Of a stretch of DNA of 64,000 nucleotides, positions 7,528 through 58,817 are shown piece by piece. The position numbers were made by a program, and so were the translations under genes. Position 1 is the first letter of the stretch. Every line of letters starts with the position of its first letter. Below the pieces are notes generated by a model. It saw only the letters and a list, made by a program, of their open reading frames with translations, was not told where the DNA came from and searched no databases. Location of the stretch: NCBI GenBank assembly GCA_035524895.1, contig DATLFI010000265.1, positions 1,026 to 65,025 of the forward strand, read 5' to 3'. Origin of the DNA: Thermoanaerobaculia bacterium (GTDB lineage Bacteria > Acidobacteriota > Thermoanaerobaculia > Multivoradales > Multivoraceae).

Positions 7528-10110
7528 CTACGGTCTCACGACCACCTCGAGGAACCACATGCGTCGGTTGCCGCCGGCCCGGAGCTGTGCGTTGGCGCGA
7601 ATGCCCTCGCTCTCGATCTGGATCTCCCCGTCGTGCTGCAGGGCCGTCAGAAAGCTCTGGCCTACCCAGTAGACAAAGGGCTTCATCAGCTCGGGGATTG
7701 GCTCGAGACTGGCCGCGAGCTCGGACTCCGCACCCGACCAGCTCACGGTCATTCCCACGAGCTTGTCGGCGGGTCCGATCAGCTCGACGATGCCTTGGCT
7801 CTCGCCGTCCACACGCGACGCGGCTAGCGAGGGGTGACCGTAACGCTCCGAGCCCGGCGCGAGCTCCAGGCCTTGCGCGCGCAGCAACTCGGCGGCCTGA
7901 TCGCGCGACATCACGCCGAGCCCGACGGTTGATGTAGGCGGCGGCAGAGTCGGAGCGTTCGGGTCGGGACGGTCCTGGGCCATCGACACGACGTAGGCGT
8001 GGATCTGCTGGACGTCGCGCGCGGTGAGGATGTCGGCGAAGGACGGCATGCCGATCTCGAGGAAGCGGTCGCCGCGCACGATGAGCTCGTAGTTGTCGTG
8101 CACCGCCTTGCGCGAGTAGCGCAGGTCGGATTGGAGGCCGCTCGAGTTGGTGCCGTAGCCGTGACACCGCCCGCAGTGGATCTCGTAGAGATCGGAGCCG
8201 CGCCGGATCTCTTCGGGAGCACCGAACGGCGCCGGCGGCGGGTCCGGGTTCGCGTGGCGTCGGGCCACCTCGGGCATGGGCTGGTCGGCGTCGAGCTCGA
8301 ACGTGAACAGGCGACCGACGTTCTTGTTCCGGACCGCGGCCGAGATCGCCGGGTCGCCGGCGGGCACGGCGCCTCCCCAGCCGGCCAGCACGCTCACGCG
8401 CTGCACGCCGTCGAGCTCCCAGGTGATCGGCGCGGCGACGATCGGGATGCCGGTCTCGACCGACCACAGCAGCTCCCCGTCGATCGCCGAGTAGGCGGAG
8501 AAGCGACCGCTCGGGTCGCCCTGGAACACGAGATCGCCGGCAGTGGCAAGTAGGCCACCGTTGTTGACCGCCGGTTGGACCACGCTCCACACCGCGCGCT
8601 GGGTCACCGGGTCCCAGGCTTTGAGCGCGCCCTTGGCCGCCGGCATCGCCTCGGACATCGCGCTCACCTTGGGATGGGTCCAGCCCACTCCCAGGTTCCA
8701 CAGCCGCGGGTCGTACTCGAAGTCGGGGTCGAGCCGGTACACGGTCGGCTCCTCGCGCGAGGGGATGTAGACGAGGCCGGTGCCCGGGTGGAAGGCCATG
8801 GGCTGCCAGTTGTGGCCGCCGAGCGGCCCGGGGAACACGATCTTGGGCTCGCGGTCGTAGTTCGCGGCTCCAGTCTCGACCGGACGCCCCGTCGTCCTGT
8901 CCACGTGGCTAGCCCAGTTGACGCGGGTGTACTTCTCAGCCGAGAGCAGCTCGCCCGTCGCGCGGTCGAGCACGTAGAAGAAGCCGTTCTTCGGCGCCTG
9001 CATCGCCACCTTGCGCATCCGGCCGTCGATCTCGAGATCGACCAGCATGATGTGCTGCACGGCGGTGTAGTCCCAGTTCTCGGCCGGCGTCGTCTGGTAG
9101 TGCCAGACGAGGCGGCCGTCGTCCGGATCCAGCGCCAGGATGGAGGAGAGGAACAGGTTGTCTCCGCCGCCCGGGCTGCGATAGCGGCGTGGCCACGGCG
9201 AGCCGTTGCCGGTGCCGACGTAGAGCAGGTCGAGCTCCGGGTCGAACGCCAACGCGTCCCAGACCGTGCCGCCGCCACCGACGACCCACCACTCGCCGGT
9301 CCAGGTCTTCGCCGCCATCTCGAGCTCTGGATGCTCGAACGGCTTCGACGGGTCACCCGGCACCGTGTAGAACCGCCACGAGAGCTCGCCGCTCTCGGCG
9401 TCGTAGGCACTGATGTAGCCGCGCACGCCATACTCGGCACCGCCGTTGCCGATGAGGACCTTGCCCTTGACCACCCGCGGCGCGCCGGTGATGGTGTACG
9501 GCCGGCTGCGGTCGATGGTGTTGACGTCCCACGCTACTTCGCCGGTCGCCGCGTCGAGCTTGATCAGCCGGCCGTCGATCGTGCCCACGAACAGGTGGTC
9601 GCCCCACAGCGCGGCACCGCGGTTCACCACGTCGCAGCAGGCGTTGTAACCCCACTGGCGCGGCACGTCCGGGTCGTAGCTCCACTTGGCCTTGCCGGTG
9701 CGCAGCTCGATCGCCTGCACGCCGCTCCAGGAGGTGGTGAGGTAGAGAACACCGTGGTTGACCAGCGGCGTCGCCTGGTGGCCGCGGTCGCGACCGGTGT
9801 CGTGGGTCCAGGCCAGACCCAAGCGGGAGACATTCTTCGCATCGATCTGCGAGAGCGGCGAAAAGCGCTGCTCGCTGTAGGTGCGGCCGTGGGTGAGCCA
9901 GTCGCCCGGCTCGCGATCGGCGTTGGCGATGCGCTCGCCGGTCACCGCCGTGGGGCGCGAGGCGCTGGCACCCTCCGCCGGCGCCGCTCCCCGTGACTGC
10001 GCCGACGCTGGCGACCCCGCAAGGTGCCCGAGGAAAGCCAGGAGAAGGATCGTGGCTGCGTCGACGCCTGGTGACAGGGATCCTGCCCGCGATGCTCGGC
10101 TCGTCTTCAT
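7528..10110 (-). CDS. PQQ-dependent quinohemoprotein alcohol dehydrogenase (type II: 8-bladed PQQ propeller + c-type cytochrome domain CGRCHG) carrying an extra ~140-aa C-terminal domain
   Basis: Start MKTSRASRAGSLSPGVDAATILLLAFLGHLAGSPASA is a signal peptide (CAT at 10108-10110). The propeller begins WLTHGRTYSEQRFSPLSQID and shows the adjacent-Cys CC ring motif. A CxxCH heme site follows the propeller, then a further non-junk ~140-aa tail. The track ORF 7528..10434 has a spurious N-extension. Confidence 0.75.
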   Translation of the reverse strand: MKTSRASRAGSLSPGVDAATILLLAFLGHLAGSPASAQSRGAAPAEGASASRPTAVTGERIANADREPGDWLTHGRTYSEQRFSPLSQIDAKNVSRLGLAWTHDTGRDRGHQATPLVNHGVLYLTTSWSGVQAIELRTGKAKWSYDPDVPRQWGYNACCDVVNRGAALWGDHLFVGTIDGRLIKLDAATGEVAWDVNTIDRSRPYTITGAPRVVKGKVLIGNGGAEYGVRGYISAYDAESGELSWRFYTVPGDPSKPFEHPELEMAAKTWTGEWWVVGGGGTVWDALAFDPELDLLYVGTGNGSPWPRRYRSPGGGDNLFLSSILALDPDDGRLVWHYQTTPAENWDYTAVQHIMLVDLEIDGRMRKVAMQAPKNGFFYVLDRATGELLSAEKYTRVNWASHVDRTTGRPVETGAANYDREPKIVFPGPLGGHNWQPMAFHPGTGLVYIPSREEPTVYRLDPDFEYDPRLWNLGVGWTHPKVSAMSEAMPAAKGALKAWDPVTQRAVWSVVQPAVNNGGLLATAGDLVFQGDPSGRFSAYSAIDGELLWSVETGIPIVAAPITWELDGVQRVSVLAGWGGAVPAGDPAISAAVRNKNVGRLFTFELDADQPMPEVARRHANPDPPPAPFGAPEEIRRGSDLYEIHCGRCHGYGTNSSGLQSDLRYSRKAVHDNYELIVRGDRFLEIGMPSFADILTARDVQQIHAYVVSMAQDRPDPNAPTLPPPTSTVGLGVMSRDQAAELLRAQGLELAPGSERYGHPSLAASRVDGESQGIVELIGPADKLVGMTVSWSGAESELAASLEPIPELMKPFVYWVGQSFLTALQHDGEIQIESEGIRANAQLRAGGNRRMWFLEVVVRP

Positions 10111-10266
10111 GTCCACAGCCTCCCCAGGCAGCTTCCTCGAGATCGCATGTCGAGGTCCGAAGGTCGAGCCGGTGGCGCGACACGGGCGCGGCCCGCTCCA
10201 TTGTAGGCGGCGCGGCGGGCCTACGTCGGGCCGACACGCCGGCGATGCTGCGACCGGTTGTAAGAT

Positions 10267-10551
10267 GCTGCTAGCAGCCCGTGGTGGAACCCGCGTGAGG
10301 CTGCGCGCGGGGATCTGCGGCGGCTGGCAAGGCGTGGCCGACGAACGCGATGCGGTGCCATCGTGCAGGAGGCCCAACGCAGCCAGCGGCCGCAAACCCC
10401 CGCGCCCCAGGCGGTTGGGGCGGCGTGGGGCCATCTGCGGTGTTGCGCTCGCTCAGCGATGGACCCAGCATCGCCACCGCTCCCGCGCCTTGCATACGGC
10501 CCCACGGCGCTCCCAACGCAGCCCACGGGGGTTCCACCACGGGCTGCTAGC
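10267..10551. repeat. Full-length copy of a MITE/REP-like element: 24-bp perfect terminal inverted repeats GCTGCTAGCAGCCCGTGGTGGAACCC ... GGGTTCCACCACGGGCTGCTAGC around a ~235-bp structured core
   Basis: The terminal inverted repeats were read directly. The core (GCAAACCCCCGCGCCCCAGGCGGTTGGGGCGGCGTGGGGCC...CATCGCCACCGCTCCCGCGCC...CCCAACGCAGCCCACGGGGG) recurs at 14143-14372. It lies in the divergent intergenic region between the PQQ-ADH start and the gene at 10581. Confidence 0.7.
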
Positions 10552-10580
10552 CACTCCAGCCCTCACGCGAGGAGGTCAGC

Positions 10581-11678
10581 ATGAAGACGCGACGCGCGGT
10601 GCCGTTCGCGACGACCCTCGTCCTGGTCCTGACCGTTCCCGCTCTCGCTCGAGAGCGCGACGGCATCCCGCGCATGCCCGACGGCCGACCCGATCTCTCG
10701 GGCACCTACGACGTCTCGACGCTCACGCCGCTCGAACGCCCTCGGGAGTTCGGAGAGAACCTGTACCTGACACCGGAGCGGGCGACCGAGATCATGGAGA
10801 CGGAGCGCTTGCGCGTGCTGGACCGGGACCGGAATCGTGGTCCCATCGAGGAGGCGCCGCCGGAAGGCGGTGCGCCGCCGGTCGGGGTCGGCGACGAGTT
10901 CCGCGAGACCAGCGGCGCCGGCAACGTCGGCGGCTACAACAACTTCTGGACCGACCGCGGCACCGAGGTCTTCACCATCGACGGCAAGTTCCGCACCTCG
11001 ATCCTCGTCGAACCCAAGGACGGTCGCTATCCACCGATGACCGAGGAGGCCATCGAGCGACTGTCCCGGCGGCGCCAACTGCGTCGCCCCAACGACGGCA
11101 CGGCCTGGTGGCTCGAGGTCGACGGCCTCGGACCCTACGATGGGCCGGAGATGCTGGGCATCGCCGAGCGCTGCATTCTCGGTTTCACCGGTGCCGCGCC
11201 GACCTTTCCGAGCCTCTACAACAATTTCAAGCGACTGGTGCAGACGCCGGATCACGTGATGATCCTGATCGAGATGGTGCACGACGCGCGCGTCGTGCGG
11301 ATGAATTCCGAGCATCCGCCGGCGGACCAGCGGTTCTGGCTCGGCGACTCGATCGGCTGGTGGGAGGGCGACACGCTGGTGGTCGAGACCACCAACTTCC
11401 ATCCCCAAGGGGCGCCGCGCGGCGGGTCCGAGAACATGCGGGTGACCGAGCGCTTCAGCAGGATGGACGATGGCAACCTGCTCTACCGCTTCACGGTCGA
11501 CGATGCATCGGTGTGGACCGCGCCGTGGACCGGGGAGTACGTGTGGCGCAGCAGCGACGACAAGGTCTACGAGTACGCCTGCCACGAAGGCAACTACGCG
11601 ATGGGCAACATCCTGCGCGGGGCGCGCTTGCTCGAGGCGGAGGCGCGAGCCAAGGCGGGTCCGAGCAGCGAGGAGTAG
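10581..11678 (+). CDS. Secreted hypothetical protein (conserved-looking, family not recognised)
   Basis: ATG at 10581 with signal peptide MKTRRAVPFATTLVLVLTVPALA. Composition is non-junk throughout, with C-terminal YEYACHEGNYAMGNILRGARLLEAEA. It lies 18 nt upstream of the ankyrin gene on the same strand. Confidence 0.5.
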   Translation: MKTRRAVPFATTLVLVLTVPALARERDGIPRMPDGRPDLSGTYDVSTLTPLERPREFGENLYLTPERATEIMETERLRVLDRDRNRGPIEEAPPEGGAPPVGVGDEFRETSGAGNVGGYNNFWTDRGTEVFTIDGKFRTSILVEPKDGRYPPMTEEAIERLSRRRQLRRPNDGTAWWLEVDGLGPYDGPEMLGIAERCILGFTGAAPTFPSLYNNFKRLVQTPDHVMILIEMVHDARVVRMNSEHPPADQRFWLGDSIGWWEGDTLVVETTNFHPQGAPRGGSENMRVTERFSRMDDGNLLYRFTVDDASVWTAPWTGEYVWRSSDDKVYEYACHEGNYAMGNILRGARLLEAEARAKAGPSSEE

Positions 11679-11696
11679 ACCCGCCTCCGGCGAATA

Positions 11697-12842
11697 TTGC
11701 CGGCCGACAGGTCCTCGACCGAGCGGGGCAGGCCCGTGAGTCGTACCGAAGCACCTTCCTACCGCGCCTCGCTGGCGGAGTACGAGCTTCGGGCGGAGGC
11801 CCTGCTCGAGGACCTGCATGCCGGAGACGGCGCCGCGGCACAACGGTTCAAGTGGGAGCACCCGCGGTACCGCGACCAGCCGCTGCGCGCCGTGGATCCC
11901 GCGGAGCTCGGCCTCGATGACGCGCGGCTGGTCGTGGCGCACGAGCATGCGTTCGAGGATTGGCAGGATCTCGCACGGTTCACGGATGCGGTGCAAGCTG
12001 GCGGACCGGTCGAACGCTTCGAGCGCGCGGTCGAGTCGGTGGTCGCGGGGGACTTGGCGACCTTGCGAAGGATGCTGCACGAGCAACCAGAGCTCGTGCG
12101 GGCGCGCTCGACGCGGCGGCACCACGCGACGCTGCTGCACTACCTCGGCGCGAACGGCGTCGAGGGCGCACGGCAGTGCACGCCGCCGAACGCGGTCGAC
12201 CTCGCGAAGCTGCTGTTGAACGCCGGCGCCGAGGTCGACGCGCTGGCGGACATGTACGACGAGAGGTGCACGACCCTCAGCATGCTGGTGTCGAGCTCGC
12301 CTCCGGCGCAGGCGGGCTTGCAGGGAGCGCTCGCGGAGCTGCTCCTCGATCACGGCGCCGCGCTCGACGGCCCTGGCTCGAAGTGGCAGTCCGCGATCCT
12401 CACCGCTCTCTTGTTCGGGTTCCTCGACACGGCCCAGGTGCTGGCACGCAGAGGAGTGCGGGTGGACGACCTCGTGACGGCGGCTGGCCTCGGCCGGCGC
12501 AAGGACGCAGCCCGGCTGCTGCCGGATGCCGGCGGCGAGAGCCGCCACGCGGCGCTCGCGCTCGCGGCGCAGCTCGGTCACTTGGATGTGGTGGCGCTGC
12601 TCCTCGATGCGGGAGAGGACCCCAGCCGCTACAACCCCGAAGGCCACCACGCCCACGCGACGCCGCTGCACCAAGCCGTCTGGGCCGGACATCAGAGCGT
12701 CGTGCGCCTGCTCGTGGAGCGGGGAGCGCGGCTCGACATCCGCGACACGATCTTCGACGCCACGCCGCTCGACTGGGCGAGCTATGGTCAGCGGACAGAG
12801 ATCGCTGAGCTCTTGCGCCAGCTCGGCGCGCCGGAGCACTGA
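11697..12842 (+). CDS. Ankyrin-repeat protein (cytoplasmic)
   Basis: At least 5 ankyrin repeats, e.g. ATPLHQAVWAGHQSVVRLLVERGARLDIRD and HAALALAAQLGHLDVVALLLDAGEDP. There is no signal peptide. GTG 11736 is an alternative start. Confidence 0.65.
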   Translation: MPADRSSTERGRPVSRTEAPSYRASLAEYELRAEALLEDLHAGDGAAAQRFKWEHPRYRDQPLRAVDPAELGLDDARLVVAHEHAFEDWQDLARFTDAVQAGGPVERFERAVESVVAGDLATLRRMLHEQPELVRARSTRRHHATLLHYLGANGVEGARQCTPPNAVDLAKLLLNAGAEVDALADMYDERCTTLSMLVSSSPPAQAGLQGALAELLLDHGAALDGPGSKWQSAILTALLFGFLDTAQVLARRGVRVDDLVTAAGLGRRKDAARLLPDAGGESRHAALALAAQLGHLDVVALLLDAGEDPSRYNPEGHHAHATPLHQAVWAGHQSVVRLLVERGARLDIRDTIFDATPLDWASYGQRTEIAELLRQLGAPEH

Positions 12843-12972
12843 CAGTGTCGCGGGTAGTGGGTCAACGGACCCACTACCGTGTCGCGGGCTCGATCGGCCA
12901 CTTGGTAGGCTGCACACAAAGCGCTCCTGGTGGAGCGGCCTCGGGGCGTTGTCCCACGAGAGGGGGTGCCGG

Positions 12973-13845
12973 ATGCGACGTGAACGTCTTTGCCATCAGC
13001 GTGACTTGGTCGGGCGCTCCTTGGCGATCCGGTTCTCGAGAACATCGGCAGGGCTGGCGGCCGCGATAGCGTGCGCAGCGCTCGCGATCTCCTCCGCTTC
13101 GTTCGCGCGGCAGCCACCAGCGACGGCCACCAACGACGGGATCGCGTCGCAGCACCAGGCGATGTCGTTTCGCGCCACCGTGACCCAAGAGCTCCAGCTC
13201 GAGTACCTGTTGGCCCTGCCGAAGGGCTACGCCGAGGGCGGCGAGCGCTGGCCGCTGGTGCTCTTTCTCCACGGCGCCGGTGAGCGTGGCAGCGACCTCG
13301 CGAAGGTGGAGATCCACGGGCCGCCGAAGCTGATCGCCGCGGGGCAGCAGATCCCCGCGATCGTCGTCTCGCCGCAGTGTCCGGCGAACGAGTGGTGGAC
13401 CGCGGACACGCACCTGCTGGCGCTCGAGCGCCTGCTCGACGAGATCGTCGCGAAGTACCGCGTCGACGAGGATCGCATCTACCTCACGGGCATCTCGATG
13501 GGCGGCTACGGCACGTGGGCGCTGGCTGCGCGCCAGCCGGAGCGCTTCGCCGCGGCGGCGCCCATCTGCGGCGGCGGTAACGCGCTGCCGGCGGGGCGCC
13601 AGCTCCGCAACCTGCCGATCTGGGCCTTCCACGGGGACGCCGACCCGGTGGTGCCGGTGGCCGAGTCGCAGCGGATGGTCGATGCGGTCCGGCGCGCCGG
13701 CGGCACACTGGCGAAGATCACGATCTATCCCGGGGTCGGGCACGACTCGTGGACCCAGGCCTACGAGGACCCGGCGCTCTGGGAGTGGCTGTTCGCACAG
13801 CGTCGCAAGCAGACCGGCACACCCGCTGCGGGTGTCCGCCCTTGA
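12973..13845 (+). CDS. Secreted alpha/beta-hydrolase esterase (phospholipase/carboxylesterase / predicted-peptidase family)
   Basis: ATG at 12973: MRRERLCHQ...AAAIACAALAISSASFA signal peptide. Motifs LVLFLHGAGERGSD, nucleophile GISMGGYGTW and WAFHGDADPVVPV (Asp/His) are present. The track ORF starting at 12526 overlaps the ankyrin gene out of frame and is a spurious extension. Confidence 0.65.
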   Translation: MRRERLCHQRDLVGRSLAIRFSRTSAGLAAAIACAALAISSASFARQPPATATNDGIASQHQAMSFRATVTQELQLEYLLALPKGYAEGGERWPLVLFLHGAGERGSDLAKVEIHGPPKLIAAGQQIPAIVVSPQCPANEWWTADTHLLALERLLDEIVAKYRVDEDRIYLTGISMGGYGTWALAARQPERFAAAAPICGGGNALPAGRQLRNLPIWAFHGDADPVVPVAESQRMVDAVRRAGGTLAKITIYPGVGHDSWTQAYEDPALWEWLFAQRRKQTGTPAAGVRP

Positions 13846-13912: not shown

Positions 13913-14146
13913 GTGATCCTCGCCGCCATCGCACTCCTGGTCCTTGGCGTGGCTCTCGTCGGCTACGTCGCGAGGCAGGTGTACGGCTCTCTTCCCGGGG
14001 GAACTGTCGCGGGTCTGGGACACCTCTACCGTGGCGCGAACTTCTGGCTCGTGCTCGCCGGCATGATCGCGATCGCGGGGGGCCTCGCGCTCCTCATCGA
14101 CCTGTTGCCCGCGAGCTGGCAGTTCTGGCTGGGCGGCGCCGACTAG
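13913..14146 (+). CDS. Small (77 aa) two-TM membrane protein
   Basis: GTG start; ILAAIALLVLGVALVGYV and FWLVLAGMIAIAGGLALLIDLL are hydrophobic helices. Its stop TAG (14144-14146) is the first 3 nt of the CTAGGAGCCC repeat terminus. Confidence 0.4.
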   Translation: MILAAIALLVLGVALVGYVARQVYGSLPGGTVAGLGHLYRGANFWLVLAGMIAIAGGLALLIDLLPASWQFWLGGAD

Positions 14147-14372
14147 GAGCCCGCAAACCCCCCCCCGCGCCCCAAGGGGTTGGGGCGGCGTGGGGCCGTC
14201 TGCGTTGTTGCGCTCGCGAAGCGTGTGACCCAGCATCGCCACCGCTCCCGCGCCAACGCCGAGCCGCCGGTAGAGCCGCTGCAGGCGAAAGACCTTCCCC
14301 GCGCACCGCAGATGCATCCGGCCCCACGGCGCTCCCAACGCAGCCCACGGGGGTTCCACCACGGGCTCCTAG
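14143..14372. repeat. Second long copy of the MITE/REP-like element: termini CTAGGAGCCCG ... GGGTTCCACCACGGGCTCCTAG; core ~85-90 % identical to 10389-10551 with indels
   Basis: The core motifs are shared with copy 1. The left end is shortened to CTAGGAGCCCG. A ~60-bp insertion lies relative to copy 1 before the right terminus. Confidence 0.7.
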
Positions 14373-46335: not shown

Positions 46336-47019
46336 GTGGCTGGCCAGAGCCGGCCGGACCTCTTCCGGTGCGAGGGCTGCGAGGCCATCCACGAGAACTC
46401 CTTCGAGGGCCTGGGATCGAGCACCACGATCCCGCCCGCCGGCGAGCCTGGCGAGCGCATGGTCCTGCGCGGCCGCGTGCTCGAGCCCGACGGTGAGACG
46501 CCTGCCGCCAGCGTCGTGGTCTACGCGTACCACACCAACGCCGCGGGCGTGTACCCGCGCCGTGGTGACGAACGCGGCTGGGACCGACGGCATGGCTACC
46601 TGCGCGGCTGGGTGCTCGAGCCCGACGGTGAGACGCCTGCCGCCGGCGTCGTGGTCTACGCGTACCACACCAACGCCGCGGGCGTGTACCCGCGCCGTGG
46701 TGACGAACGCGGCTGGGACCGACAGCATGGCTACCTGCGCGGCTGGGTGAAGACCGACGGCTCCGGCGAGTATCGGTTCGAGACCATCCGTCCCGCGCCG
46801 TACCCTGGCGGGAGAGCGGCCGCGCACATCCACCTCACCGTCAAGGAGCCAGACCGCAAGGAGTACTGGATCGACGATGTGGTCTTCACCGACGATCCGG
46901 CGGTGACCGCCGCCTACCGAGCCCGTCAGCAGGACCGTGGCGGCTCCGGCATCGTCACACCCGAGCGCGGCGCCGAGGGCACCTGGCAGGTCCGTCGGGA
47001 CATCGTCCTCGAGCCCTAG
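46336..47019 (+). CDS. Intradiol ring-cleavage dioxygenase-like protein carrying an internal 45-aa tandem duplication
   Basis: C-terminal YRFETIRPAPYPGGRAAAHIHLTVKEPDRKEYWIDDVVFTDDP is an intradiol dioxygenase signature. GTG start. The stop TAG lies inside the palindrome at 47016. Confidence 0.6.
   Translation: MAGQSRPDLFRCEGCEAIHENSFEGLGSSTTIPPAGEPGERMVLRGRVLEPDGETPAASVVVYAYHTNAAGVYPRRGDERGWDRRHGYLRGWVLEPDGETPAAGVVVYAYHTNAAGVYPRRGDERGWDRQHGYLRGWVKTDGSGEYRFETIRPAPYPGGRAAAHIHLTVKEPDRKEYWIDDVVFTDDPAVTAAYRARQQDRGGSGIVTPERGAEGTWQVRRDIVLEP
46477..46746 (+). repeat. 135-bp direct tandem duplication x2 (2 mismatches), in-frame within the dioxygenase-like CDS
   Basis: Units 46477-46611 and 46612-46746 both encode VLEPDGETPAA(S/G)VVVYAYHTNAAGVYPRRGDERGWDR(R/Q)HGYLRGW. 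Confidence 0.85.
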
Positions 47020-58291: not shown

Positions 58292-58759
58292 ATGCCGCAA
58301 CCATTCTTCGCGCTCGTCCTTGCGCTCACGCTGGGTGCCAGCCCGGCCGCCGTCCCGCCGGCGGCGGAGCAACTCGACGAGGAAGGCTTCCGCAACCTGC
58401 TCGACCGTCTCGCGCGGGCGTGGCACGAGGGGGACTCCGCGCTCGCCGCGGGCTGCTTCACGGAGGACGCCGTGTACGTGGAGCCGCCGCGCAAGCAGCT
58501 CTACGTCGGACGCGAGTCGTTGTTCCGGTTCTTCGGCGGGGCTGCGGGTCGTCCGGGCGAGATGTCGATGACGTGGCGTAACGTCGTGTTCGACCCGCGG
58601 CAACAGTTGGGGATGGGCGAGTTCAGCTTCGCCTATGGCAGTCAGGTCCACGGCGTCGCCGTGATCCGAGTCGAGTCGGGCCTGATCGACCAGTGGCGCG
58701 AGTACTGGTACGAGTCAGAGCTTCCCTGGAAGGAGTTCGTGGAGCCAGGTGTGCCCTAG
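58292..58759 (+). CDS. Secreted SnoaL/NTF2-like fold protein
   Basis: AGGAG RBS. Signal peptide MPQPFFALVLALTLGASPAA. FRNLLDRLARAWHEGDSALAAGCFTEDAVYVEPP matches the NTF2-like/DUF4440 pattern. Confidence 0.5.
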   Translation: MPQPFFALVLALTLGASPAAVPPAAEQLDEEGFRNLLDRLARAWHEGDSALAAGCFTEDAVYVEPPRKQLYVGRESLFRFFGGAAGRPGEMSMTWRNVVFDPRQQLGMGEFSFAYGSQVHGVAVIRVESGLIDQWREYWYESELPWKEFVEPGVP

Positions 58760-58817
58760 CAGCCCGTGGTGAAACCCCCGCGCGCAGCCTCGCGCGGGTT
58801 TCACCACGGGCAGCTAG
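58756..58817. repeat. Short 62-bp form of the element: CTAGCAGCCCGTGGTGAAACCC - loop - GGGTTTCACCACGGGCAGCTAG, in inverted orientation relative to copy 1
   Basis: Its loop CCGCGCGCAGCCTCGCGCGG equals the reverse complement of the internal segment 10293-10312 of copy 1. TAG 58757-58759 is the NTF2-like gene stop. Confidence 0.7.

What the first reader, a model, noticed from the sequence alone, without database searches (positions are those of the whole stretch)
10267..10551. Full-length element copy sits in a divergent promoter region between PQQ-ADH and a secreted-protein gene
The 285-bp element with 24-bp perfect TIRs occupies most of the 470-bp divergent intergenic region (10111-10580). It could provide or disrupt promoters for both flanking genes. 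Perfect TIRs suggest recent mobility.
Basis: seen in the sequence. Interest (0 to 1): 0.5.

Follow-up and report, generated by a model that had tools for sequence, protein, structure and literature searches.

The report
Mobile hairpin repeat upstream of gene
The flagged sequence is a real small non-coding transposable element (a MITE) that landed between the likely promoter and the ribosome-binding site of a secreted-protein gene. It belongs to a previously undescribed but otherwise ordinary repeat family that shares its ends with an IS5/IS1182-like insertion sequence.

Summary
The element is real, but it spans 10270-10551 (282 bp, 23-bp perfect inverted ends), not 10267-10551 with 24-bp ends. 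It is a MITE that begins and ends in CTAG. Two degraded copies lie in the same window (14143-14372 and 58756-58817). A 92-95 % identical metagenome relative (L105/L106) lacks the copies at 10270 and 14143 exactly at the predicted sites, so these are insertions.

The 22-nt end sequence recurs in more than 220 public loci (Acidobacteriota, Myxococcota and others), usually as a 166-bp hairpin element. It also bounds 1.46-1.5-kb insertion sequences that encode a DUF772 + DDE_Tnp_1 transposase (IS5/IS1182-like). That is the probable mobiliser. My first guess, IS630, was tested and rejected.

The window copy is a double-core variant: two structured cores, head to head, inside one pair of ends.

It sits 4 bp after a conserved TAAGAT hexamer (a likely -10 box) and 30 bp before the ATG. 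It is therefore probably transcribed as a long structured 5' leader, and it contains no promoter-like motif. The candidate promoter of the PQQ-dehydrogenase gene lies outside the element. The larger change on that side is a clean deletion of an MscS gene.

Perfect ends do not date the insertion, because the ends are conserved family-wide.

Verdict: an ordinary MITE insertion from a new family, of moderate interest.

The parts
10270..10551 (.). Copy A of the MITE: 282 bp (CTAG to CTAG = 10271-10550). It is a double-core variant.
   Evidence: Inverted repeat and repeat family. Absent from the syntenic relative L105/L106. Folds at -204/-207 kcal/mol, z about -10, on both strands.
10270..10292 (+). 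Left terminal inverted repeat, GCTAGCAGCCCGTGGTGGAACCC
   Evidence: It matches the ends of the IS copies in L154, L196 and L222 at 22/23 positions.
10529..10551 (-). Right terminal inverted repeat (perfect complement of the left one)
10272..10273 (.). Left TA of the putative TA target duplication (inside CTAG 10271-10274)
   Evidence: The site in L105 lacks the element and reads gatgctCCCAGccac. Statistics on 406 element ends favour a TA duplication.
10548..10549 (.). Right TA of the putative duplication (inside CTAG 10547-10550)
10292..10414 (+). Core module 1 (structured hairpin; forward sense on the + strand)
   Evidence: Full-length hit of covariance model R1, which was built from element interiors with the TIRs removed: 29.2 bits, E 0.0012. 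Hairpin of -70 kcal/mol.
10409..10523 (-). Core module 2 (the same module, forward sense on the - strand)
   Evidence: Full-length hit of R1: 27 bits, E 0.0035. Hairpin of -62/-64 kcal/mol.
10261..10266 (+). TAAGAT, candidate -10 box of the secreted-protein gene, 4 bp left of the insertion point
   Evidence: The block GGTTGTAAGATGCT is conserved in L105. A TAnnAT-like hexamer lies 24-41 nt before the ATG in homologous genes. Its function is inferred.
10200..10205 (-). TACAAT, candidate -10 box for the minus-strand transcription unit (formerly MscS followed by the PQQ dehydrogenase)
   Evidence: It is the only hit of the relaxed promoter scan and is conserved in L105. Its function is inferred.
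10569..10575 (+). Ribosome-binding site GAGGAGG of the secreted-protein gene
   Evidence: Read from the sequence. Conserved in L105, L107 and L108.
10581..11678 (+). Gene for a 365-aa protein with a signal-peptide-like N-terminus and no Pfam match
   Evidence: More than 8000 homologues, the best named ones from Thermoanaerobaculia/Acidobacteriota MAGs.
7528..10110 (-). PQQ-dependent dehydrogenase with a cytochrome c domain
   Evidence: Pfam PQQ 1.4e-75 and Cytochrome_CBB3 3e-07
10107..10148 (-). 13-codon remnant of a deleted MscS gene. Its stop overlaps the dehydrogenase start (ATGA).
   Evidence: Alignment with L105, where a 1.33-kb MscS gene occupies this position
14143..14372 (.). Copy B: 230 bp. 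The left end is truncated to CTAGGAGCCCG. It holds core module 2 plus a 57-bp extra segment. Its first TAG is the stop codon of the upstream ORF.
   Evidence: Absent from L105/L106, where the empty site reads GACTAGG.
58756..58817 (.). Copy C: a 62-bp internal-deletion derivative (two ends plus A's first subterminal 20 nt). Its first TAG is the stop codon of a SnoaL-like ORF.

Best explanation
Window 10270-10551 is a non-autonomous DNA transposon (MITE).

**What was shown**
- It has the 22-23-nt terminal inverted repeats of a group of about 1.5-kb insertion sequences that encode a DUF772 + DDE_Tnp_1 transposase (IS5/IS1182-like).
- It carries no transposase itself.
- It is absent from a close relative at exactly this site.
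- It consists of one pair of ends around two copies, head to head, of a conserved structured core of about 115-120 nt. That core is normally present once in the family's 166-bp elements.

**What is inferred**
- It was moved in trans by such a transposase, into the TA of a CTAG-like target, and duplicated the TA.
- The insertion point lies 4 bp downstream of a conserved TAAGAT hexamer (taken to be the -10 box) and 18 bp upstream of the ribosome-binding site of a secreted-protein gene.
- Transcripts from the native promoter should therefore start at the first bases of the element and carry all of it as a roughly 310-nt leader.
- That leader would fold into a 34-bp outer stem with two hairpin arms, leaving the RBS free.
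- The likely consequences are altered mRNA processing or stability (for example a long perfect duplex as an RNase III substrate, or a protective 5' stem). Promoter donation is less likely.
- The divergent PQQ-dehydrogenase gene keeps its own candidate promoter outside the element.
For: - **Repeat and ends.**
- **Empty sites.** The 92-95 % identical relative L105/L106 lacks both copy A and copy B. The net size difference at A is 276 bp, which equals 274 bp plus TA.
- **Family size.** More than 103 genome loci and 120 metagenome loci carry the end sequence. Of 100 complete elements, 54 are exactly 166 bp.
- **Partner IS.** TIR pairs 1.46-1.49 kb apart in L154, L196 and L222 each enclose one 461-474-aa ORF. 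These ORFs have Pfam DUF772 and DDE_Tnp_1. Their best NCBIfam match is IS1182. Plasmid homologues are annotated 'IS5 family transposase'. Copy A's ends match the IS ends at 22/23 positions.
- **TA duplication.** In 406 distinct ends the outermost base varies ([T/G/A]TAG, 14 cases), while the fourth base never does.
- **Double core.** Model R1, built from interiors only, hits 10292-10414 (+) and 10409-10523 (-) over its full length. It gives the same pair of hits in a second 281-bp element, L219.
- **Structure conservation.** Between A and L219, 10 of 105 pairs carry compensatory double changes.
- **Promoter context.**. No promoter-like site lies inside the element.
Against: - No autonomous copy with these ends was found in the 64-kb window. 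The rest of this genome could not be searched, so present-day mobility here is unproven.
- The partner transposases score below NCBIfam's IS1182 cutoff (164-177 bits against 270), so the exact IS family is not settled.
- MITE and IS share only the ends and no interior sequence. The MITE is therefore not a simple deletion derivative.
- The L105 site for copy A reads CCCAG rather than CTAG. The empty site for copy B differs by a 5-bp indel. Neither is a textbook-perfect empty site.
- TAAGAT has no recognisable -35 partner. Promoters of this lineage are uncharacterised, and there is no transcript evidence.
Confidence: 0.8

Rival explanations
1. The element is mobilised by an IS630/Tc1-mariner-family transposase, as proposed for RUP in Streptococcus pneumoniae. 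This was suggested by its CTAG/TA ends.
For: - IS630 is known to insert at the TA within CTAG and to duplicate the TA (PMC2170065 and the Tenzen & Ohtsubo 1991 paper cited there).
- In L089 a left half of the repeat runs straight into an IS630-type HTH coding fragment.
- IS630-family elements sit next to repeat ends in L047 and L163.
Against: - Every IS630-family element found has different terminal repeats: L104 TA|GTGTCC, L047 TA|GTGGTCC, L163 TA|GTGCCC. Each is simply inserted into the terminal CTAG of a repeat copy.
- The L089 junction falls inside the transposase ORF at about codon 55, so it is a truncation, not an IS end.
- Elements with identical ends encode a DDE_Tnp_1 transposase instead.
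Confidence: 0.05
2. The element's main significance is as a promoter donor or disruptor for both flanking genes.
For: It fills 60 % of the divergent intergenic region and abuts the start region of the plus-strand gene. Other bacterial MITEs, such as Correia elements, can carry promoter parts (my own knowledge; review PMC2229807).
Against: - No -35/-10-like pair lies inside the element, even under relaxed criteria.
- The minus-strand candidate -10 box (TACAAT, 10205->10200) lies 65 bp outside the element and is conserved in the relative without it.
- The conserved TAAGAT stays intact just upstream of the insertion.
Confidence: 0.1
3. The conserved core is a functional structured RNA (or single-stranded DNA) module, and the transposon ends merely spread it. 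On this reading the copy acts as a cis-acting RNA structure in the leader, not as neutral junk.
For: - In the 43-sequence interior alignment, 26 of 38 predicted pairs carry compensatory changes, as do 10 pairs between A and L219.
- One strand folds better: type V by -8.3 kcal/mol (53 of 56 elements), type N by -20.5 kcal/mol (9 of 9).
- G:T pairs outnumber A:C pairs 127 to 15 at predicted pairs.
- Where the element supplies the stop codon of a gene, the better-folding strand is the sense strand in 24 cases against 9 (p = 0.0135).
- Some loop sequences are invariant.
Against: - The window's own two cores show no strand asymmetry (-70 vs -74 and -62 vs -64 kcal/mol).
- No Rfam family matches.
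- Copies are related by descent, so the counts are not independent.
- The pair set was predicted with RNA rules, which favours G:U pairs.
- Hairpin conservation could equally serve transposition or arise from intra-palindrome repair.
- No expression data are available.
Confidence: 0.2
4. It is a REP/REPIN-type repeat spread by a RAYT (Y1 transposase) rather than by a DDE transposase.
For: Copy C (62 bp, two inverted 22-mers with a short spacer) looks like a REPIN doublet.
Against: - The ends carry CTAG, not the GTAG/CGTC tags of REPs (PMC3733652 abstract).
- Each 22-mer is not itself a palindrome.
- There is a target-site duplication pattern.
- The same ends bound DDE-transposase insertion sequences.
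- Copy C shares A's subterminal 20 nt and is a deletion derivative.
Confidence: 0.02

Closest known systems
RUP (repeat unit of pneumococcus) with IS630-Spn1
   Same: Both are small hairpin-forming non-coding repeats with TA at the termini. Both are proposed to move in trans because their terminal repeats match those of a resident insertion sequence. Both tend to sit next to or inside other IS elements (PMC2229807).
   Different: Here the partner is a DUF772/DDE_Tnp_1 (IS5/IS1182-like) transposase, not IS630. The ends are 22-23 nt rather than 9. The family is spread over several phyla rather than one species.
Correia/NEMIS elements of Neisseria
   Same: Both are 100-155-bp elements with about 24-bp inverted ends and TA duplication. 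Both are often co-transcribed with neighbouring genes, fold into long RNA hairpins, and can change the expression of adjacent genes (PMC2229807; the RNase III processing is from my own knowledge).
   Different: There is no sequence similarity. The Correia ends carry promoter-like hexamers and an IHF site, and no such motifs were found here. No autonomous partner is known for Correia, whereas one was found for this family.
ERIC/IRU and YPAL repeats of enterobacteria
   Same: All are imperfect palindromes of about 127-168 bp inserted at TA and found in transcribed intergenic regions.
   Different: The sequences and hosts are unrelated. Those repeats have very short terminal repeats of 7 bp (PMC2229807, Table 1). 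No orientation effects have been demonstrated here.
IS5/IS1182-type insertion sequences (for example the copy on Sphingobium indicum pCHQ1, NC_014007.1 125.7-127.1 kb)
   Same: The transposase is 48-52 % identical to those bounded by the MITE's ends. The pCHQ1 copy has the same end design: CTAA-CAGGCCGTTGACG... and ...CACCGCGCTG-CTAG.
   Different: Those are autonomous 1.4-1.5-kb elements. The window element has only the ends, plus an unrelated structured interior.

Membership tests
MITE (non-autonomous TIR transposon) | Terminal inverted repeats | tested here: met
   23-nt perfect, 28 nt at 96 %
MITE (non-autonomous TIR transposon) | Small size with no transposase gene | tested here: met
   The element is 282 bp. 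Its six-frame translation gives only GC-rich read-through with no coding signal. No transposase was found by tblastn in the window.
MITE (non-autonomous TIR transposon) | Multiple dispersed copies | tested here: met
   3 copies in the window. More than 220 loci elsewhere.
MITE (non-autonomous TIR transposon) | Presence/absence polymorphism with a target-site duplication | tested here: met
   Copies A and B are absent from L105/L106 at CTAG-like sites. End statistics favour a TA duplication. Both empty sites carry small extra differences.
MITE (non-autonomous TIR transposon) | An autonomous element with the same ends exists | tested here: met
   L154, L196 and L222 (also L220, and the 5' end in L083). 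None was found in this window. The rest of the host genome could not be tested.
IS1182 family (partner IS) | Transposase reaches the NCBIfam IS1182 equivalog cutoff | tested here: not met
   164-177 bits against a cutoff of 270, although it is the best-scoring model. The Pfam domains DUF772 and DDE_Tnp_1 do pass their cutoffs. I therefore file it only as IS5/IS1182-like.
IS630/Tc1-mariner-derived MITE (RUP-like) | Insertion at TA (CTAG) with TA duplication | tested here: met
   This feature is not exclusive to IS630.
IS630/Tc1-mariner-derived MITE (RUP-like) | Ends shared with an IS630-family element | tested here: not met
   The four IS630-family elements examined (L047, L104, L163, and the L089 fragment) have other ends or none.
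REP/REPIN | 20-40-bp palindromic units tagged GTAG or CGTC | tested here: not met
   The ends are CTAG followed by a non-palindromic 18-mer.
REP/REPIN | Associated RAYT gene | not tested
   No whole genome was available. No RAYT profile search was run.
Any Rfam RNA family | Covariance-model match at the gathering score | tested here: not met
   There were no hits at the gathering threshold in the window. Only chance-level miRNA/sRNA matches appeared at E <= 10.

The most novel reading that the evidence does not exclude
The roughly 120-nt core inside these elements may be a selected, strand-specific structured RNA that uses IS5/IS1182-type transposon ends as a vehicle. It would be kept mainly where it becomes part of an mRNA. 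About half of the copies sit exactly on a TAG stop codon, and those preferentially have the better-folding strand in the sense orientation. The double-core variant in this window would then present the functional strand whichever way it is transcribed. If so, this would be a cross-phylum family of mobile cis-acting RNA modules (mRNA-end stabilisers, terminators or processing sites) in Acidobacteriota and Myxococcota.
Probability: 0.2. Interest if true: 0.6.

Novelty: new member of a known kind. Interest (0 to 1): 0.35.

Why it matters
**For this locus.** The finding explains the odd 470-bp 'divergent promoter region'. It is a composite of three parts: a 124-bp ancestral intergenic region, a MITE insertion, and the scar of a deleted MscS gene. 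It predicts a testable change in the leader of one gene.

**More generally.** It defines a MITE family that no searchable paper mentions: no paper holds its end sequence.
- It has an identified candidate mobiliser.
- It has a very uniform length of 166 bp.
- It has a covarying internal structure.
- It is spread across poorly studied soil and marine phyla.
- It breaks metagenome assemblies, since many hits lie at contig ends.
- Because it regenerates TAG and CTAG on insertion, it sits exactly on stop codons and seeds nested insertions.

This is useful for annotating Acidobacteriota and Myxococcota genomes. It is not a new kind of biology unless the RNA-level reading holds.

Tried and rejected
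1. **IS630 as the parent.** I pursued this through L089, a protein search (one weak hit), L104, L047/L046 and L163. All of these IS630 elements have other ends and are merely inserted at the repeat's CTAG, so I rejected the idea.
2. **Long TIR pairs in L013 and L049.** They enclose ordinary genes, not a transposase.
3. **Rfam.** No hits at the gathering threshold or at E <= 10.
4. **Exact look-up of the window's secreted protein.** It is not on record, so the source genome stays unidentified. The best named homologues are from Thermoanaerobaculia MAGs.
5. **Metagenome scan with a subfamily-specific right end.** 0 hits. A viral-contig scan also gave 0 hits.
6. **Interior of copy A against all fetched loci.** The only relative is L219. 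The Enhygromyxa-type interiors are not detectably homologous to the model.
7. **MITE interior as a derivative of the IS subterminal sequence.** No similarity beyond the ends.
8. **Consensus promoter/terminator scan of 9900-10800.** Nothing in the intergenic region.
9. **A 9-mer anchor for end statistics.** It was too promiscuous in 70 % GC DNA, so I replaced it with a 15-mer anchor.
10. **First orientation test.** It was not significant (22 vs 12). Only the enlarged set reached p = 0.0135.

Full report
**1. Observation**

The sequence holds an inverted repeat with arms at 10270-10297 and 10524-10551 (28 nt, 96 % complementary). The perfect part is 23 nt, GCTAGCAGCCCGTGGTGGAACCC. Those bases belong to the flank, which is also present in the relative that lacks the element. 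The 23-mer with up to 3 mismatches occurs five times in the window against 0 expected. The element is 282 bp and begins and ends with CTAG (10271-10274 and 10547-10550).

- The PQQ/cytochrome-c dehydrogenase has its ATG at 10110 on the minus strand.
- A 365-aa protein with a signal-peptide-like N-terminus has its ATG at 10581, preceded by GAGGAGG at 10569-10575.

**2. Copies in the window**

- Copy B (14143-14372) keeps only 11 nt of the left end and lacks the left 125 nt. It carries a 57-bp segment that copy A lacks. Over shared parts it is 90-97 % identical to A.
- Copy C (58756-58817) is a 62-bp hairpin made of the two ends plus A's first 20 subterminal nucleotides, so it is an internal-deletion derivative.
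- In B and C the first TAG of the element is the stop codon of the upstream ORF.
- CTAG is rare in the window: 33 sites against about 175 expected from base composition. Six of the 33 are element ends.

**3. Mobility**

The closest homologue of the secreted protein (96 % identical) lies on JGI metagenome contigs L105 and L106. These are syntenic with the window at 92-95 % nucleotide identity.
- Copy B is absent there. The site reads GACTAGG, a single CTAG whose TAG is the stop codon.
- Copy A is absent there. The site reads gatgct-CCCAG-ccac, against gatgct-G[CTAG...CTAG]-ccac in the window. The net difference is 276 bp, which equals a 274-bp element plus TA.

Both copies are therefore insertions, or excisions in the relative, with boundaries exactly at the CTAGs.

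**4. The family and its mobiliser**

The 22-nt end (CTAGSAGCCCGTGGTGRAACCC) matched more than 103 loci in GTDB species genomes. Most are Vicinamibacterales (Acidobacteriota) and Nannocystaceae/Enhygromyxa (Myxococcota), with a few Planctomycetota and others. It also matched 120 metagenome loci. Of 100 complete elements, 54 are exactly 166 bp.

The CTAG/TA ends first suggested IS630 as the mobiliser (PMC2170065). In L089, half of an element abuts an IS630-type HTH fragment. However, every IS630-family element I could inspect (L104, L047, L163) has different ends and is simply inserted into the terminal CTAG of a repeat copy.

Searching instead for end pairs 0.45-3.5 kb apart gave L154, L196 and L222:
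- Each is a 1.46-1.49-kb unit with one 461-474-aa ORF.
- Each ORF has Pfam DUF772 + DDE_Tnp_1. The best NCBIfam match is IS1182, below its cutoff, followed by IS5.
- The three proteins are 53-59 % identical to each other. They are 48-52 % identical to plasmid genes annotated 'IS5 family transposase'.
- In L154 and L222 the ORF ends ...TTGC*, and its stop codon is the terminal TAG.
- The Sphingobium pCHQ1 homologue has the same end design.

The window's ends match these IS ends at 22/23 positions, but nothing else is shared. The MITE is therefore a foreign interior between IS-type ends.

The target duplication is probably TA. In 406 distinct ends, the base outside TA varies ([T/G/A]TAG, 14 cases). 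The base after TA is always G, so it behaves as part of the element. An element that starts with G and ends with C regenerates TAG and CTAG on both sides when it inserts. This explains three observations: copies sitting on stop codons, tandem arrays (L007), and IS630 insertions at element ends.

**5. Anatomy of copy A**

Both strands fold into a 34-bp outer stem carrying two hairpin arms (-204 and -207 kcal/mol, z about -10).

I built covariance model R1 from the interiors only (TIRs removed) of 43 Vicinamibacterales-type 166-mers. In that alignment, 26 of 38 pairs show compensatory changes. R1 matches 10292-10414 on the + strand and 10409-10523 on the - strand, each over the full model. The same pair of hits occurs in L219, a second element of about 281 bp that is 77 % identical to A. 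Single hits occur in Myxococcota elements.

Copy A is therefore a double-core variant: one pair of ends enclosing two head-to-head cores. Ten of A's 105 base pairs are kept in L219 through double substitutions.

**6. Promoter context**

In L105 a 1.33-kb MscS gene lies between the dehydrogenase and the secreted-protein gene. The true divergent intergenic region there is only 124 bp. In the window the MscS gene is cleanly deleted. The deletion leaves a 13-codon remnant (10148-10107) whose stop overlaps the dehydrogenase ATG.

Two promoter-like sites are relevant:
- A relaxed sigma-70 scan of 10080-10600 finds only TACAAT on the minus strand (10205->10200). It is conserved in L105 and lies 65 bp outside the element.
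- On the plus strand, the block GGTTGTAAGATGCT is conserved between the window and L105 and ends 4 bp before the insertion point. Homologous genes elsewhere carry TAGAAT, CAGAAT or TAGGAT 24-41 nt before their ATG.

I infer that TAAGAT (10261-10266) is the -10 box. The element then sits at about +5 of the transcript and is transcribed as a structured leader. The RBS, 18 nt beyond the element, stays free. No promoter-like or terminator-like motif lies inside the element. All functional statements in this section are inferences, because no transcript data exist.

**7. Signals beyond a plain MITE**

- One strand folds better than the other. The difference is -8.3 kcal/mol in the Vicinamibacterales type (53 of 56 elements) and -20.5 kcal/mol in the Enhygromyxa type (9 of 9).
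- The alifold energy is -93 for one strand against -56 for the other.
- At predicted pairs, G:T outnumbers A:C 127 to 15. This count is biased, because the pairs were predicted with RNA rules.
- In 31 of 65 elements the terminal TAG is the stop codon of a GC3-supported ORF. In those cases the better-folding strand is the sense strand 24 times against 9 (p = 0.0135; copies are not fully independent).
- The window's own cores show no such asymmetry.

These signals leave open an RNA-level role. I rate that at about 0.2.

**8. Comparison and verdict**

In behaviour the element is closest to RUP, Correia and ERIC-type bacterial MITEs (PMC2229807). It differs from them in sequence, in its partner (DDE_Tnp_1 rather than IS630 or unknown) and in its breadth of distribution. 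No paper in the searchable library contains its end sequence or describes it.

It is a new member of a known kind. There is no evidence that it donates a promoter. The minus-strand gene is affected more by the MscS deletion. Perfect ends do not indicate a recent insertion.

Noticed in passing
window 10107-10148 (junction about 10140-10146), compared with L105 4524-5877: A 1.33-kb MscS (mechanosensitive channel) gene that lies between the PQQ dehydrogenase and the secreted-protein gene in the close relative is cleanly deleted in the window. The deletion leaves a 13-codon remnant ORF whose stop overlaps the dehydrogenase ATG (ATGA). The dehydrogenase is probably now driven directly by the former MscS promoter.
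   Followed up: partly
window 14143-14372 and 58756-58817: Two further degraded copies of the element each supply the TAG stop codon of the upstream ORF (an 82-aa ORF and a SnoaL-like ORF). Copy B lies upstream of an ada/alkA-like gene and is absent from L105/L106.
   Followed up: yes
window 11693-13052, compared with L105 7112-7390: The window carries about 1.36 kb that the close relative lacks. This includes an ankyrin-repeat gene (11697-12842), whose homologue sits next to the secreted-protein gene in L108.
   Followed up: partly
window 46464-46733: A perfect-register tandem duplication of a 135-bp unit, with the two copies 97 % identical.
   Followed up: no
L047 3168-4378; L163 about 96-1290; L089 4850-5142: IS630-family insertion sequences, each with its own different ends, are repeatedly inserted exactly into the terminal CTAG of MITE copies. 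In L089 a half-MITE is fused to a truncated IS630 transposase gene. The regenerated CTAG at element ends acts as a landing pad for CTAG-targeting elements.
   Followed up: yes
L007 5716-6205: Three elements lie in a head-to-tail tandem array at 162-bp spacing. Their junctions read ...GGGCTGCTGCCAGCCCG... instead of ...GCTAGC....
   Followed up: no
L230 about 2320-2410 (upstream of the homologous secreted-protein gene): A different short hairpin element with related ends (CTAGCGGGGCCGTGGT...ACCACGGCCCCGCTGG) lies upstream of a homologue of the same gene in another metagenome contig.
   Followed up: no
alignment A5 (interiors of 43 elements), columns about 8-16 and 113-121: Between two covarying helices there is an invariant asymmetric internal loop (5'-CCGA / 5'-GAA, with possible tandem G.A pairs). 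There are also invariant purine-rich loops (GACGAGGGAG and GACCGAGGAGCAACGC). These are reminiscent of a kink-turn-like RNA motif and remain unexplained.
   Followed up: no
whole window: CTAG is about 5-fold under-represented: 33 sites against about 175 expected from base composition. The putative gene set uses TAG as a stop codon almost as often as TGA (17 vs 21) and never TAA.
   Followed up: partly
L083 1-128 (Planctomycetota MAG) and L196 22-1507: The same autonomous IS is present in a Planctomycetota MAG and in an unrelated metagenome contig. The transposase N-terminus MALGKRKPLEQPLF and the subterminal CCCCTTGACGAA are both identical, which indicates horizontal spread of the partner IS.
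   Followed up: partly
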